64,000 nucleotides of DNA from Solimonas sp. (GTDB lineage Bacteria; Pseudomonadota; Gammaproteobacteria; Nevskiales; Nevskiaceae). Shown one piece after another: positions 94-55,165 of this stretch. The notes below the pieces were generated by a model. It ran no database searches. It was not told the origin of the DNA and saw nothing but the letters and a program-made list of their open reading frames with translations. Numbering within the stretch: position 1 is the stretch's first letter; every line of letters starts with the position of its first letter. The position numbers and the translations under genes were made by a program. The stretch is from the NCBI GenBank assembly GCA_035476855.1, contig DATILC010000168.1:4644-68643 (forward strand), read 5' to 3'.

Positions 94-396
94 GGGCTCT
101 CCTCCCAGATGATGTTAAAAACGTTACAGCGCCTAATGTTACACACGCCGCGGGACGGTGGACTGTCCGCAGTGACGTTCAGTGCTGTCAGAAACGTCAG
201 GACGGGCCAGTGCCGGATCCCGGCGGGTCTGCCATTTTTCTTTATCGGCTATTGCTTGCGTCCTCCCCTGGGGCAGGACCGGTCGCCCGATATTACTCCT
301 GCGGGAGCGCATGGGAAGAGTCGGAAAGGGACGAGCGTAGTGGCAGTTTGTGCCGGTGTCGCTGGGGGAAATGCTGGGGACAGCCAGAGAGGAACA

Positions 397-516
397 GCGG
401 TGACGCCATCCATGGCGGGACTTCTGCTCGCCCATCTACCCCCGGCCCGCGTTGGGCTTACCTCGGAGCGACATCGAGTCGCTCCTCGCCAGGGCCCAAC
501 GCTCCATGGCCGGGCG
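397..516. repeat. 120-bp structured repeat, copy A
   Basis: Ungapped 91/120 match to 53271-53390; nested stems 441-447/508-514, 449-457/494-502, 465-472/478-485; CCATGGC at 410 and 504. Confidence 0.85.
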
Positions 517-557
517 CGAGCCCCCGCAGGCAATGCCGTTTAGGCGTTGCGGCTGCA

Positions 558-614
558 GTGACGCCATCCATGGCCGGGCGCGTCCAGCCGCAAGCAATGC
601 CATTTAGGCATTGC

Positions 615-634
<20 letters not shown>
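558..634. repeat. Core-deleted tandem copy of the structured repeat plus a bulged hairpin overlapping the recQ 3' end
   Basis: 558-582 equals 400-416 joined to 511-518; stems 580-591/621-632 (12 bp) and 592-601/607-616 (10 bp). Confidence 0.8.
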
Positions 635-2474
<1,840 letters not shown>

Positions 2475-20319: not shown

Positions 20320-20343
20320 CGTTCTGGGGTCTGGGTTTCGGTA

Positions 20344-20388
20344 CGCCATCCATGGCGCGACCGCGGTCAATCAATCTACCCCCTGCCC
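20344..20388. repeat. Truncated third copy of the structured repeat (5' part)
   Basis: CGCCATCCATGGCG-N16-ATCTACCCCCTGCCC has the same spacing as 404-448 (14/14 and 14/15 matches). Confidence 0.65.
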
Positions 20389-20421
20389 GAGATTCACCAG
20401 CGGTGGCCCGGGCCGCTCCGG

Positions 20422-52363: not shown

Positions 52364-53234
52364 AGGCCCCGATGACTTCGACGCACTGTTCCGGGCCGCC
52401 GGAGTCGATGGCTGGCTGCATGCGCTGGACCTGAGCAGCGGCCGCGAGATCGACCATGGCGCCGATCAGCCGGTGGTGGCCGCCTCGGTGTTCAAGATCC
52501 CGGTGCTGGTCGAACTGTGCCGGCAGGCCGACGCTGGGCAGATCGATCTCGCCGAAGCTGTCCATGTCCCTGCCGAAGACCGCGCCGCGGGCTCCACCGG
52601 CCTGTCGATGGGCCTGGATGCCGCTACGCACAGCTGGCGCGACCTGGCCCTGTCGATGATCGTGGTCAGCGACAACGCCACCACCGATGTCTTGTGCGCA
52701 CGGCTGGGCCTCGACCGCATCAACGCGGCGATGGCTGCGCTAGGCCTGCCGGGGACGCAGCTCGAAGGTGATTGCCGGTACCTGTTCGCACAGATGGCCG
52801 CAGATGCCGGCTGTACGGGCCTGGCCGACTTCCCGCCGAAACCTGATCCGGAACTGCTGGGCCGCCTGCGCGTACTTCAACCCTTGCTCACCAACCGCAC
52901 GACGCCACGCGAAGCCACGCGCCTGCTGGTCGCGATCTGGCGCGACCAGGCCGCCTCGACGGAGAGCTGCGCGTTGATGCGCCGCATCCTCGGCGCGCAG
53001 GTCTGGCCGCATCGCCTCGCGTCCGGCTTCCCCGAGGACGAGATTCGCACGGCCGGCAAGACCGGCACCCTGATCATCGTGCGCAACGAGGCGGGTGTCG
53101 TCAGCTACCCCGACGGCAGCCACTACGCCGTATCGGTCTTCACCCGCAGCCACGAAGTACGCGCGAAGCACCCCGCGCAGGACCGCGCGATCGGCCAGGC
53201 AGCGCGCCTCGCCGTGGACCTGCTGCGGGGCTGA
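52356..53234 (+). CDS. Class A beta-lactamase-fold serine hydrolase lacking Glu166
   Basis: SVFK, SDN and KTG motifs; omega-loop segment TQLEGDCRYLF in place of TRLDRWEPELN. Confidence 0.8.
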   Translation: MPEGPDDFDALFRAAGVDGWLHALDLSSGREIDHGADQPVVAASVFKIPVLVELCRQADAGQIDLAEAVHVPAEDRAAGSTGLSMGLDAATHSWRDLALSMIVVSDNATTDVLCARLGLDRINAAMAALGLPGTQLEGDCRYLFAQMAADAGCTGLADFPPKPDPELLGRLRVLQPLLTNRTTPREATRLLVAIWRDQAASTESCALMRRILGAQVWPHRLASGFPEDEIRTAGKTGTLIIVRNEAGVVSYPDGSHYAVSVFTRSHEVRAKHPAQDRAIGQAARLAVDLLRG

Positions 53235-53270
53235 TCGGCCAGGCCCATCAACAGGCCCTTGCATGTTGCT

Positions 53271-53430
53271 GTGGTGATGCCATCCATGGCGAGACGGCCG
53301 TTCGCCCATTGAACCCCGGCCCATGCTTGGCTTACTTCGGCATGACATTGAGTCATGCCTCAGCCGGGCCAAGCATTCCATGGCCGGGCGTTCGGGCGCC
53401 TCGCGGCCCTTGGCCGCGAAGCAGGCGCCC
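53271..53430. repeat. Structured repeat, copy B, plus trailing bulged hairpin
   Basis: 53271-53390 aligns ungapped to 397-516; trailing stems 53394-53400/53424-53430 and 53401-53408/53412-53419. Confidence 0.85.
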
Positions 53431-53467
53431 TCACCCAGTATTTCCGCAGATAGCCGGTGGTCCGCCG

Positions 53468-55165
53468 ATGGGAGACGATCTGGACATCACGATCCGGATG
53501 CCCCCCATGACCGATGTGCCTACCCCCAGCCTCGCCCAGCAGCTCGACGAACTGTTCAAGCCCTGGAACCGCAGCGACGCCCCCGGCTTCGTCGTCGGTG
53601 TGCGTCACAAGGGCAGCCTGATCCATCGCCGCGGCTTCGGCCTGGCCAGCATCGAACATGCCGCGGCGAACACGCCGCAGACGCGCATGCGCATCGGCTC
53701 CACCAGCAAGCAGTTCACCTGCCTGGCGGTCCTGCTGCTGGAAGAGGAAGGCAAGCTCGACATCGACCAGCCGGTGGGAGATTACCTGCCGGAACTGGCC
53801 GGCAAGGCCAGCGGCGAGCCGACACTGCGCCAGCTGATGCACCACACCGGCGGTATCCGCGATCCGTTCTTTGCGGCCATCGTGCACAACCGCGGCGCCT
53901 GGGGCCACATGCCGGCCGGCGGCAGCCTGCAATTGATGCTGCGCCATGACGGACGCAACTTCGCGCCCGGCACCGACATGATCTACACCAACGCCGGCTA
54001 CACGCTGCTGTCGCTGGTGGTCGGCCGCGTCAGCGGCCTGAACTTCGCCGATTTCCTCTACGAGCGCATCTGCGCGCCGCTGGGGATGCTGGACACCCGC
54101 CTGCTCTCCAGCGACATGGAGATCCTGCCCAACATGGCGACGCTGCACCTGCCGCAGGCCGACGGCGGCTGGCGTCGCGGCATTTATCCCACCGATGACC
54201 TGCTGGGCTCCGGCGGCATCATCTCCACGGTCGACGACATGCTGACCTGGACCGCGCACCTGCTCAGCCCGCAGAAGCGCGTCGGCAGCGCGGCCAGCTG
54301 GCAGAAGATGCTGCAGCCCTTGCGCCTCGCCAATGGCACCGAGGGCAGCTATTGCCTGGGCCTGACGCGCCAGACCTTCCGCGGGCTCGACACCATCCAC
54401 CATGCCGGCGCCACGCTGGGCGCGCAGTGCCAGATGCTGATCGCGCCTGCCGAGGAACTCGAGATCGTCGTCATGGCCAACCGCATGGACGGTTCCGCCC
54501 CGCTGATGGCGCAGAAGATCGTGGAACTGGTGCTCGGCAACCGCCTGCCGCCGCCGACCCCGCCGCCCGCGGCCGATGACCATCCCGGCCTGCTGGGCCG
54601 CTGGTACTCCAGCAGCGCGCGAACGCTGATCGACATCAGCCGCATCAAGGCACTGCCCGACGCACCGGAAGGCATGATGCTCTCCGCCCACGGCTCTCCC
54701 GTCGGCCTGCTTACCGGGCGCGATGGCCGGCTCGGCATCAACAACTCGCCGACCAGCCCGATCGACCTGCTGGCGCCCCCAGCCGGTGAAACCCCCGCCT
54801 CGCTCGACTTCCGCCTGGCCGGCGAGACGCGGAGCTTCGAGCGCCTGCCACAAAAGGGACCGGCCGCCGCCGATCTCGCCGCCGCTTTCTGCGGCCGCTA
54901 CCGCAGCGTCGACTTCGGCCCCGAGATCGAGGTCCTGCTGCAGGACGACAAGCTCTACATCGACTACCAGCCGGCCTGCGGCAAGGCCCTGTGGGAGCTG
55001 CTGCCGCTGAGCGAGGACGTCGTCGCCTGCGGTGCCTTCCACAGCGTCCCCGCGCTGCCGCTGCCGAACAACGCCGTGCTGACGCTGGAGCGCCGTGACA
55101 CCAGGGTCGTCGCCTTCACCCAGGATGCCGACCGCGTGCGCGGCCTGCGCTTCGAGCGCTGCTGA
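53468..55165 (+). CDS. Beta-lactamase-family serine hydrolase 3 (D-aminopeptidase/MlrB-like)
   Basis: GSTSK, YTN, HAGA; close paralog of 32516-34180; start 53468 or 53507. Confidence 0.85.
   Translation: MGDDLDITIRMPPMTDVPTPSLAQQLDELFKPWNRSDAPGFVVGVRHKGSLIHRRGFGLASIEHAAANTPQTRMRIGSTSKQFTCLAVLLLEEEGKLDIDQPVGDYLPELAGKASGEPTLRQLMHHTGGIRDPFFAAIVHNRGAWGHMPAGGSLQLMLRHDGRNFAPGTDMIYTNAGYTLLSLVVGRVSGLNFADFLYERICAPLGMLDTRLLSSDMEILPNMATLHLPQADGGWRRGIYPTDDLLGSGGIISTVDDMLTWTAHLLSPQKRVGSAASWQKMLQPLRLANGTEGSYCLGLTRQTFRGLDTIHHAGATLGAQCQMLIAPAEELEIVVMANRMDGSAPLMAQKIVELVLGNRLPPPTPPPAADDHPGLLGRWYSSSARTLIDISRIKALPDAPEGMMLSAHGSPVGLLTGRDGRLGINNSPTSPIDLLAPPAGETPASLDFRLAGETRSFERLPQKGPAAADLAAAFCGRYRSVDFGPEIEVLLQDDKLYIDYQPACGKALWELLPLSEDVVACGAFHSVPALPLPNNAVLTLERRDTRVVAFTQDADRVRGLRFERC

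What the first reader, a model, noticed from the sequence alone, without database searches (positions are those of the whole stretch)
400..634. Exact empty-site version of the repeat next to the filled one, supplying the recQ 3' end
Seen: copy A has CCATGGC at 410 and 504, 94 bp apart (also 94 bp apart in copy B, 53284 and 53378). Deleting between them gives GTGACGCCATCCATGGCCGGGCGCG, exactly the sequence at 558-582, and the following 32 nt (583-614) match 519-550 at most positions. The short copy forms a hairpin whose right arm (621-632) is the last codons of recQ, with the stop at 615-617. Inference: the 94-bp core may insert or excise at CCATGGC like a cassette, and the element may have remodelled the RecQ C-terminus.
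Basis: partly seen in the sequence, partly recalled or inferred. Interest (0 to 1): 0.62.

Follow-up and report, generated by a model that had tools for sequence, protein, structure and literature searches.

The report
Compact copy of mosaic hairpin repeat
The "empty site" is a shortened member of an undescribed family of about 80 hairpin-rich intergenic repeats in a soil Solimonas genome, most likely made by a deletion between two short direct repeats, and its last hairpin supplies the final few codons of recQ, as other family members do at other gene ends.

Summary
Bases 400-416 plus 511-518 equal 558-582 exactly, and recQ's last four sense codons lie in the right arm of a perfect hairpin.

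Both copies belong to a dispersed modular family of about 80 copies in this Solimonas genome. It also occurs in other Nevskiaceae and in Lysobacteraceae, with no Rfam or literature match. A unit has three modules:
- **M1:** a GCCATCCATGGC hairpin.
- **M2:** a second such hairpin, in a short form or a long form with a nested roughly 54-nt hairpin.
- **M3:** a two-stage hairpin of variable sequence.

Real empty sites in related genomes lack all three modules, so 555-634 is not an empty site. It is a compact M1/M2 fusion plus M3.

Such fusions are rare but recur: seven in five of six Solimonas genomes. At one orthologous locus, two species carry the full form and a third lacks exactly the segment between the two hairpins. 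Deletion therefore happens; no evidence shows insertion of a 94-bp cassette.

Copy A lacks its M3 right arm, which fits a 158-bp tandem duplication followed by a deletion in the distal unit.

About 22 of 72 elements overlap a convergent gene's stop codon. Gene tails differ between filled and empty orthologues, which supports minor remodelling of the RecQ tail beyond the HRDC domain.

The parts
399..421 (+). Copy A, module M1: GGTGACGCCATCCATGGCGGGAC, a small hairpin CGCCAT-CC-ATGGCG at 404-417
   Evidence: The same motif heads 75 elements genome-wide.
422..442 (+). Copy A, spacer between the two CCATCCATGG-type hairpins
   Evidence: Spacer length classes put M2's right arm about 31-33 nt after M1 in the short form and 79-83 nt in the long form. 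A 'mini' class of 14-15 nt also exists.
443..516 (+). Copy A, module M2 in its long form: outer stem CCGGCCC/GGCCGGG enclosing a nested hairpin (449-502) and ending in TCCATGGCCGGGCG
   Evidence: Fold. There are 22 long and 53 short M2 forms in the genome.
517..550 (+). Copy A, truncated M3: left arm GCGAGCCCCCGC plus inner hairpin GGCAATGCC-GTTTA-GGCGTTGC. The right arm is missing
   Evidence: Canonical M3 units have a complementary right arm. Truncated M3 units of this kind recur in tandem arrays of S. fluminis.
551..557 (+). Junction between the two tandem units; the unit period is 158 nt (397 to 555)
   Evidence: D2 spacing 158. Compare the period-159 arrays in G002:C5.
558..580 (+). Compact copy S: fusion of the M1 left half with the M2 right half (GTGACGCCATCCATGG|CCGGGCG). 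It keeps one 5-bp GCCAT/ATGGC hairpin
   Evidence: The same fusion occurs at six other loci in the genus.
581..634 (+). Compact copy S, complete M3: outer stem 580-591/621-632, 4-nt bulge, inner stem 592-601/607-616, loop ATTTA. The canonical bulge CCAAAGC is changed to CTTAAGC, which creates the recQ stop
   Evidence: Canonical bulge seen. C309 has the analogous CCTAAGC stop.
615..2474 (-). recQ (619 aa; DEAD, Helicase_C, RecQ_Zn_bind, RQC, HRDC). The last residues W614-A619 and the stop lie inside M3
   Evidence: Tail comparison with congeners.
53273..53436 (+). Copy B: a complete long-form element (M1 53273-53295, M2 long 53317-53390, M3 53391-53436 ending in TCACCC), downstream of a + strand gene
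20340..20389 (+). Solo M1 plus spacer (GGTACGCCATCCATGGCGCGAC...CCCCCTGCCCG) without M2 or M3: a truncated family member

Best explanation
Bases 397-634 hold a two-unit head-to-tail array of a dispersed, non-coding, modular hairpin repeat. I call the modules M1, M2 and M3.

Unit A (397-550) is M1, spacer, long M2 and an M3 that has lost its right arm. Unit S (555-634) is a compact derivative in which the left half of M1 is fused to the right half of M2, followed by a complete M3.

The most likely history has three steps, all inferred:
1. A single long-form element sat against the recQ stop codon.
2. A 158-nt tandem duplication occurred, running from just upstream of M1 to the inner hairpin of M3.
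3. The distal unit then lost the hairpin-forming segment between the direct repeats (A)TCCATGGC, by replication slippage or recombination.

What is shown: such fusions arise from full elements by exactly this deletion at an orthologous locus; the family's real empty sites contain none of the modules; and overlap of the M3 right arm with a convergent gene's last codons and stop is a general family property.

The recQ consequence is small. About six element-associated residues (WASSRA) replace the four-residue tail seen in most congeners, after the HRDC domain. The stop was created by two substitutions in the M3 bulge.

By analogy with REP elements, M3 probably acts as a 3'-end stabilising or translation-coupled regulatory hairpin rather than a canonical terminator, since no T-run follows it.
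For: - **Family and modules:** (75 M1+M2 units, 53 short and 22 long, 72 with M3). M2 short stems are paired at 502/530 positions with 40 double changes, and there are 63 distinct M3 outer stems among 72.
- **Whole-element gain or loss:** 13 orthologous comparisons show empty sites with no module present.
- **Deletion origin of the fusion:** at the coaD-like locus G000 and G002 are full, G004 is the fusion with the same M3 and flanks, and three genomes are empty.
- **Recurrence:** seven fusions in five of six genomes.
- **Tandem duplication:** unit A lacks exactly the M3 right arm that unit S retains. A and S share the rarer GTGACGCC M1 flank and the GCAATGCC-type inner hairpin. Arrays of period 159 with similarly truncated M3 occur in S. 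fluminis.
- **Gene-end overlap:** 22 of 72 M3 units contain a convergent gene's stop, and in 11 the stop is the TCA of the terminal TCACCC or its variants TCAGCCC and TCACTCC.
- **Changed tails:** filled and empty orthologues have different gene tails. The RecQ tail differs from five congeners that lack the element.
- **Not an assembly artefact:** two independent Logan assemblies carry the locus without a single difference.
Against: - No close relative carries an element at recQ, so the order of events at this locus cannot be polarised.
- A and S differ at 5 of 12 positions in the M3 outer left arm. A recent duplication would not show this; it requires either age plus co-evolution of S's arm with the recQ tail, or independent origins.
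- At two loci (G001:C23 and G000:C380) a fusion-type element sits where all congeners examined are empty, so compact copies may also arrive as such.
- Slippage and enzyme-catalysed deletion give the same product and cannot be told apart from sequence.
- My gene calls are a crude ORF plus GC3 heuristic.
Confidence: 0.6

Rival explanations
1. Independent arrival. Unit S never had the inter-hairpin segment at this locus. It was inserted at the recQ stop as an already compact subfamily member, and unit A was inserted later just upstream, or the reverse order.
For: Fusion-type elements occur at sites that are empty in every congener examined (G000:C380 against five congeners; G001:C23 against G005, G004 and G002). 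S is no closer to A (85% over 48 nt) than to the copy on C255 (87% over 63 nt). The outer M3 arms of A and S differ at 5 of 12 positions.
Against: Unit A lacks precisely the right arm that a separately inserted complete element would bring. A and S share two minority sequence types. The 158-nt period matches the tandem arrays seen elsewhere.
Confidence: 0.22
2. Site-specific cassette. A strand-specific nuclease or recombinase recognises the two GCCATCCATGGC hairpins, which lie in direct orientation like the left and right ends of IS200/IS605 elements. It excises or inserts the 45- or 94-nt segment between them.
For: The two hairpins are strongly conserved in sequence across two orders while everything else varies. 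They are head-to-tail. The same precise fusion recurs at seven loci. At the tRNA locus, the two genomes with the fusion (G005, G001) share a downstream sequence that differs from the canonical M3 of the genome with the full form (G003), so the direction of change there is open. A second repeat family carries the same CCATCCATGG hairpin.
Against: No candidate enzyme was found. The only two Y1-transposase genes are flanked by unrelated repeats. No orphan cassette, circle or polymorphism was seen in the available assemblies. Fusions are rare, about 2 in 80 in this genome. Long and short M2 do not differ by one clean excision (L178 array).
Confidence: 0.1
3. Assembly artefact: the tandem filled-plus-short arrangement is a mis-join of repeat copies in a fragmented metagenome-style assembly.
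For: The genome is in 422 contigs and repeats of this family often lie near contig ends.
Against: Logan contigs from two different soil samples cover 100-1400 (X1) and 286-1315 (X2) with no difference. The arrangement lies 5 kb inside a 68.8-kb contig.
Confidence: 0.03

Closest known systems
REP / BIME elements of Enterobacteria and Pseudomonas, including REPIN-RAYT systems (PMC2817692, PMC3116915)
   Same: Short GC-rich imperfect palindromes in tens to hundreds of copies, confined to intergenic regions and mostly at gene 3' ends. They combine with other motifs into mosaic units, and stems are kept by compensatory changes. Likely roles are mRNA 3'-end protection or translation-coupled regulation.
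   Different: The two conserved hairpins are head-to-tail, whereas REP dimers are head-to-head or tail-to-tail. There is no conserved GTAG or CGTC tag. The genome's RAYT is flanked by a different REP (GTGGGAGCGGCTTCAGCCGCGA). The unit is 115-210 nt with three modules.
CGTC-tagged REPs (PMC3733652)
   Same: A palindromic repeat family with no dedicated transposase found, some units inside or overlapping genes, and a wide phylogenetic spread.
   Different: CGTC REPs have 8-9 bp stems, 4-5 nt loops and a terminal CGTC motif, and sit mainly in Alphaproteobacteria. Here the loop is CC, the stem is 5-10 bp, and GACG before M1 is only one of several variants.
BOX elements of Streptococcus pneumoniae and Correia/NEMIS elements of Neisseria (own knowledge; reviewed in PMC3184786)
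   Same: Modular non-autonomous repeats with a variable middle module (boxA-boxB(n)-boxC). Length variants arise by internal deletion (Correia 106 versus 156 bp). Elements abut or overlap gene ends and alter transcript processing.
   Different: No sequence relation. Correia elements have clear terminal inverted repeats and a TA duplication; here there is no detectable target duplication and only a 5-nt GGTGA...TCACC symmetry.
Deletion between short direct repeats that flank a hairpin, and quasipalindrome template switching (own knowledge of E. coli mutagenesis literature: Albertini, Glickman and Ripley, Lovett)
   Same: The fusion is exactly the product expected from slippage between 8-12 nt direct repeats bracketing a strongly folding segment. 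The perfect but locus-specific M3 arms are what template switching within a palindrome would produce.
   Different: Those are general mutational mechanisms, not element families. Their action here is inferred, not shown.
MIRU of mycobacteria (own knowledge)
   Same: Intergenic repeats in tandem arrays within operons whose ends overlap the stop and start codons of neighbouring genes. One insertion here sits between overlapping genes with a 20-nt duplication that preserves both (pair 40).
   Different: MIRUs are direct repeats with little secondary structure and carry small ORFs.

Membership tests
REP / REPIN-RAYT | A RAYT (Y1 transposase, PF01797) gene flanked by the same repeats | tested here: not met
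   There are two PF01797 hits (C216, C119). The C216 RAYT is flanked by GTGGGAGCGGCTTCAGCCGCGA repeats and the C119 gene by AT-rich repeats. Neither has CCATCCATGG hairpins.
REP / REPIN-RAYT | Palindromes paired in inverted orientation (HH/TT dimers, REPIN) with a conserved unpaired GTAG or CGTC tag | tested here: not met
   M1 and M2 both read CCATCCATGG on the same strand. The 5' flank of M1 varies among GACGCC, GGCGCC, GATGCC and GTTGCC. Definition taken from PMC3733652.
REP / BIME (broad sense) | High-copy extragenic imperfect palindromes combined into mosaic units at gene 3' ends | tested here: met
   There are 75 units. Flanking genes are convergent (26), tandem (31) or divergent (only 4).
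MITE | Terminal inverted repeats and a fixed-length target-site duplication | tested here: not met
   The longest direct matches between the two flanks of 72 elements have the same distribution as shuffled pairings. Only GGTGA...TCACC is symmetric.
MITE | Presence/absence polymorphism of the whole unit at orthologous sites | tested here: met
   13 filled-versus-empty pairs between Solimonas/Nevskiaceae loci and G000, plus further loci.
IS200/IS605-derived palindrome-associated elements | Subterminal hairpins in direct orientation, no target duplication, and a partner TnpA whose element ends carry the same hairpins | tested here: inconclusive
   Direct orientation and absence of a duplication are met. 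No partner was found among the PF01797 hits of this genome. Other transposase families and other genomes were not searched.
   At the coaD-like locus parsimony favours full to fusion. The tRNA and L193 loci are ambiguous. Only contigs, not reads, were available for this organism.
Intrinsic (Rho-independent) terminator | GC-rich hairpin followed by a T-run on the transcribed strand | tested here: not met
   In the recQ sense, M3 is followed by GCGCCCGGCCATGG. Canonical terminators with T-runs exist beside several elements (pairs 3, 7, 15).
Any Rfam family | A covariance-model match | tested here: not met
   The best E-values were 0.07-1, all far below gathering scores, for 1-1500 and 52800-53900.

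The most novel reading that the evidence does not exclude
The family is a self-propagating 'hairpin builder'. A conserved head (two GCCATCCATGG hairpins recognised by an unknown strand-specific protein) lands at a stop codon. The M3 hairpin is then made, or continually re-made, by snap-back template switching that copies the adjacent gene's last codons in inverted orientation. Each copy thereby acquires a custom hairpin over the stop codon and rewrites the protein's tail. The same protein could catalyse precise loss of the segment between the two hairpins, giving the compact form seen at 555-634.
Probability: 0.15. Interest if true: 0.8.

Novelty: new member of a known kind. Interest (0 to 1): 0.45.

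Why it matters
- **Annotation:** it defines a previously unannotated repeat family shared by Nevskiaceae and Lysobacteraceae. This explains many odd intergenic hairpins, contig breaks and variable protein C-termini in these genomes, and it should be masked or modelled in annotation.
- **Gene ends:** small repeats routinely overwrite the last few codons and the stop of neighbouring genes. This matters for gene-end calling and for comparing orthologue lengths.
- **A testable system:** the locus-specific but perfectly paired M3 arms, some made of conserved coding sequence, offer a natural system for testing whether palindromes grow by templated copying. The rare fusions give a read-out of deletion between hairpin-flanking direct repeats.
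- **recQ:** the consequence is probably negligible.

Tried and rejected
- **Rfam:** searches of both copies gave nothing near threshold.
- **Literature:** full-text searches for the core motif and for repeat families in Lysobacter, Luteimonas, Solimonas and Nevskia found only primers and unrelated papers.
- **Earlier scan notes:** look-ups by sequence and by words found nothing outside this window.
- **RAYT as partner:** rejected, because its flanks are a different REP.
- **Read-level test for excision:** not possible. Only Logan contigs exist for the two soil runs that hold the locus. The 'joints' reported at 85% likeness come from paralogous copies. Exact-protein look-up found only the same contig.
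- **Target-site duplication:** none family-wide.
- **Integron attC idea:** dropped. Elements are dispersed singly next to ordinary genes and lack GTTRRRY cores.
- **Long-to-short M2 as one deletion:** the S. fluminis array shows that the two forms differ by more than a single clean deletion, so gene conversion between copies is more likely.
- **Census script:** a first version allowing three mismatches was swamped by false positives and was replaced.
- **RecQ search in genome contigs:** it returned mostly cyanobacterial genes and no close relatives, so congeners were reached through the genome search instead.

Full report
**1. The observation**

The sequence is as described.
- CCATGGC lies at 410, 504 and 568 in the first kilobase, and at 53284 and 53378 in the second copy. 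Both pairs are 94 nt apart.
- Joining 400-416 to 511-518 reproduces 558-582 exactly (25/25).
- The next 32 nt (583-614) match 519-550 at 25 positions.
- Bases 580-591 and 621-632 are perfectly complementary (12/12), as are 592-601 and 607-616 (10/10).
- Bases 555-634 fold at -48.6 kcal/mol, z = -6.3.
- recQ is the minus-strand ORF 615-2474 (619 aa) with its TAA stop at 615-617. Codons 615-618 (A-S-S-R) lie in the right arm.

**2. What the pieces are**

BLAST of the copies against the whole assembly shows a dispersed family. The assembly is 4.7 Mb in 422 contigs, and the window is C168:4644-68643.

Reading about 30 loci side by side gives a modular plan:
- **M1** is (G)GTGaCGCCATCCATGGCGrGAC, a small hairpin with a CC loop. 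A spacer of about 27 nt follows it, ending in CCCC.
- **M2** comes in two forms. The short form is the palindrome GCCCGGCCAT-CC-ATGGCCGGGC. The long form has the centre replaced by a roughly 54-nt nested hairpin, ending in TCCATGGCCGGGCG.
- **M3** is a two-stage hairpin: an outer stem of about 12 bp, a roughly 5-nt bulge on the right side, an inner stem of about 9-10 bp, and a 5-6 nt loop ATTyA(A). It usually ends in TCACCC.

A fuzzy census gives the following:
- 75 M1+M2 units: 53 short and 22 long.
- 72 of these are followed by a predicted M3.
- About 7 more have a 14-15 nt 'mini' spacer.

M1 and M2 are conserved in sequence. M2 short stems are paired at 502 of 530 positions, with 40 double (compensatory) changes. 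M3 outer stems are almost all different (63 distinct among 72), while the inner loops fall into a few types.

In these terms:
- Copy A is M1 (399-421), spacer, long M2 (443-516) and an M3 with only its left arm and inner hairpin (517-550).
- The 'empty-site' copy S is the left half of M1 fused to the right half of M2 (558-580), followed by a complete M3 (581-634).
- Copy B (53273-53436) is a complete long-form element.

**3. Organism, distribution, known families**

An exact M1...M2 pattern occurs as follows:
- 11 times in this genome and 5-11 times in each of five congeners.
- 0-2 times in other genera of the family.
- Not at all in 16 genomes of other families in the order.

In the named genome collection the pattern hits these taxa:
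- Nevskiaceae: Solimonas (S. fluminis, S. marina, SE-A11, MAGs), Stagnimonas, Sinimarinibacterium, Nevskia and Stenotrophobium.
- Lysobacteraceae: Luteimonas, Lysobacter, Pseudoxanthomonas and Proluteimonas.

Known families were checked:
- Rfam has no match.
- Full-text searches found no description.
- The genome's RAYT is flanked by a different, classical REP.
- Reviews of REP families define features that this family does not have: a GTAG or CGTC tag, and head-to-head dimers.

**4. Where the elements sit**

I used a simple ORF plus GC3 gene call. Flanking gene arrangements are:

| Arrangement of flanking genes | Elements |
|---|---|
| Convergent | 26 |
| Tandem, element in sense | 17 |
| Tandem, element antisense | 14 |
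| Divergent | 4 |

M1 typically starts 2-60 nt after an upstream stop codon.

On the other side, the stop codon of a convergent gene lies inside the predicted M3 in 21 elements, or 22 with recQ. In 11 cases the stop is the TCA of the terminal TCACCC or its variants TCAGCCC and TCACTCC, so the protein ends in Gly-stop or Glu-stop. In recQ, C309, C154 and C255 the frame runs deeper, to a stop in the bulge or loop.

recQ is therefore an ordinary case for this family. Its stop comes from CCAAAGC changed to CTTAAGC in the bulge, with a matching G-to-A change in the left arm. C309 has the analogous CCTAAGC.

**5. What an empty site really looks like**

Elements found in other Solimonas and Nevskiaceae loci were projected onto this genome through their flanks. 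In 13 usable pairs, the site without the element has no M1, M2 or M3. The reverse comparisons agree. The unit that is gained or lost is therefore the whole element, and 555-634 is not an empty site.

No target duplication is detectable across 72 copies. One insertion between two overlapping genes carries a 20-nt (18/20) direct duplication that preserves both the start and the stop (pair 40).

**6. The compact (fusion) form elsewhere**

A pattern specific for the M1-left/M2-right junction, checked in context, finds seven true fusions in five of six Solimonas genomes:
- G000: the window copy and C380:5011.
- G004: two.
- G005: two.
- G001: one.

In this genome, two fusions stand against about 80 full elements.

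Orthologous comparisons:

| Locus | State in each genome | Reading |
|---|---|---|
| coaD-like 3' end | G000 and G002: full M1-spacer-M2short-M3. G004: the fusion, with the same unusual M3 and the same flanks, missing exactly the 45-46 nt between the two GCCATCCATGGC repeats. G005, G003, G001: no element. | With the full form in two lineages, deletion in G004 is the parsimonious reading. |
| tRNA-adjacent | G003: full form. G005 and G001: fusion. G002: empty. | Direction of change is ambiguous. |
| L193 | G005: fusion plus M3. G002: full element plus two M3s. Others: a REPIN or nothing. | Ambiguous. |
| G001:C23 and G000:C380 | A fusion-type element sits where the congeners examined are empty. 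| Compact copies may also arrive as such. |

Loss of the inter-hairpin segment is therefore demonstrated once. Insertion of it is not demonstrated.

**7. History of the recQ locus**

None of the five congeners (RecQ 82-84% identical) has the element after recQ.

Unit A lacks precisely the M3 right arm, and unit S has it. That is what a tandem duplication of [M1 ... inner hairpin of M3] would give.

Further support for a duplication:
- The period is 158 nt.
- S. fluminis has arrays of period 159 with similarly truncated M3 units.
- A and S share the minority GTGACGCC flank and the GCAATGCC-type inner hairpin.

A later deletion between the 8-nt repeats TCCATGGC in the distal unit gives S.

Against a recent event, the outer left arms differ (GCGAGCCCCCGC versus GCGTCCAGCCGC). 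Read in the recQ frame these are A-S-P-R and A-S-S-R. This would fit A keeping an older image of the recQ tail while S's arm kept pace with it, but that is inference.

Logan contigs from two soil samples carry the locus unchanged. That rules out a mis-assembly but cannot show rare variants. The exact-protein look-up found only the same contig.

**8. The RecQ C-terminus**

| Genome | RecQ tail |
|---|---|
| G000 | ...ALIREWASSRA* |
| G001 | ...ALIREHAKT* |
| G003 | ...ALIREHAKA* |
| G002 | ...ALIREHVKP* |
| G005 | ...ALIREHVRG* |
| G004 | ...ALIREWQPDKR* |

In G004 the stop lies in the loop of a plain 14-bp hairpin. The HRDC model ends at residue 611, so only a non-domain tail is affected.

Family-wide, tails differ between filled and empty orthologues from the element boundary onward:
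- ...LLKS* becomes ...LLKG*.
- WADRLPKA* becomes WARRM*.
- ...PA* becomes ...PGSPG*.
- ...LRAK* becomes ...LRGDTPRFGNA*.
- WAEPVS* becomes WAIHGA*.

The C309 gene has the same frame through M3 as recQ: W-A-x-x-x-A-stop.

**9. An unexpected property of M3**

At the C309 locus, four species share an orthologous element with the same bulge-derived stop. Their outer stems differ yet are perfectly paired: GCGATTCACGGC, GCGATTCAAGGC and GCGATGCCCAGC, each with its own complement.

At the ABC-ATPase locus (C345) and the coaD-like locus, the right arm is conserved native coding sequence, and the left arm is its inverted copy. Each species matches its own codons: G000 GCGCGCTGG for G-A-L, and G002 GCGAATCGG for G-R-I. 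Element-free orthologues have the coding sequence but no inverted copy.

At least part of M3 is therefore made or kept complementary locally. Snap-back template switching at the inner hairpin is a known mutational route that would do this, but it is not shown here.

**10. Verdict**

- The 'empty site' is a compact derivative of a new REP/BIME-like mosaic repeat family. It is most likely a deletion product within a small tandem array.
- The cassette model is not excluded but has no positive support beyond recurrence of the fusion.
- The recQ effect is real but minor, and typical of the family.

Noticed in passing
G000 contigs C345:15279-15443 and C183:31841-31997, with orthologues in G002, G003 and G004 (loci L208-L211, L270-L274): The M3 right arm is conserved native coding sequence (ABC ATPase ...KG(A/R)(L/I)VE...; coaD-like ...RDGKK*). 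The left arm is its species-specific inverted copy. Element-free orthologues lack the inverted copy. This suggests hairpin growth by templated copying of the gene tail.
   Followed up: partly
G000 C309:1704-1872 and orthologues in G002, G003, G005 (L265-L269): Four species keep an orthologous element whose CTAAGC bulge supplies the stop codon. The outer stems differ at up to 5 of 7 positions on both arms and stay perfectly paired, while the encoded tail changes (IHG, IQG, MPS).
   Followed up: partly
L178 (S. fluminis NZ_PSNW01000001.1) and G002:C5:8458-8955: Tandem arrays of the element with period 159. In L178, near-identical units differ only in having long or short M2, and the array starts with a fusion-like unit. 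Internal M3 units are truncated at the hairpin, as in window copy A.
   Followed up: partly
L170 (Nevskiaceae MAG SSEB01000012.1) versus G000 C12:33847-33987: An element inserted between two abutting genes (...ATG/TCA...) is flanked by a 20-nt direct duplication (GAACGTGTTGCCTGACATGG / GAATGTGTGGCCTGACATGG). The duplication keeps both the start and the stop. No such duplication is seen family-wide.
   Followed up: partly
G000 C39:302, C157:11912, C339:204; many copies in G004 and G001: A second, roughly 300-nt structured repeat family contains a perfect GATTCGCCAT-CC-ATGGCGAATC hairpin plus a GTTACTTTTCTTGTC...GACAAGAAAAGTGAC hairpin. The CCATCCATGG hairpin motif is therefore shared by two otherwise unrelated repeat families.
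   Followed up: no
G000 C216:22324-22659; also C224:12082-12331 and G003:C36: A RAYT gene is flanked by classical REPs (GTGGGAGCGGCTTCAGCCGCGA). REP pairs (REPINs) of this type occupy, in G000 and G003, the same intergenic site that holds M-family elements in G002 and G005.
   Followed up: partly
window 20340-20389: A solo M1 plus spacer without M2 or M3: a truncated family member between genes.
   Followed up: no
In G005 that relative is inserted inside the gene that follows recQ.
   Followed up: no
window 94-400 (minus strand) versus L083-L086: The gene after recQ differs between this genome and four of five congeners, which have a signal-peptide protein MRSASKLLAA.... A short motif upstream of that gene (GGAGGAGTAAGATCGAAGG) has a look-alike at about 290-330 in the window. 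This suggests a rearrangement or gene loss next to the repeat array.
   Followed up: no
window 615-2474 (recQ): In the named genome collection, the best RecQ matches outside the family were cyanobacterial (53-60% identity). Xanthomonas, Stenotrophomonas and Rhodanobacter gave 47-50%.
   Followed up: no
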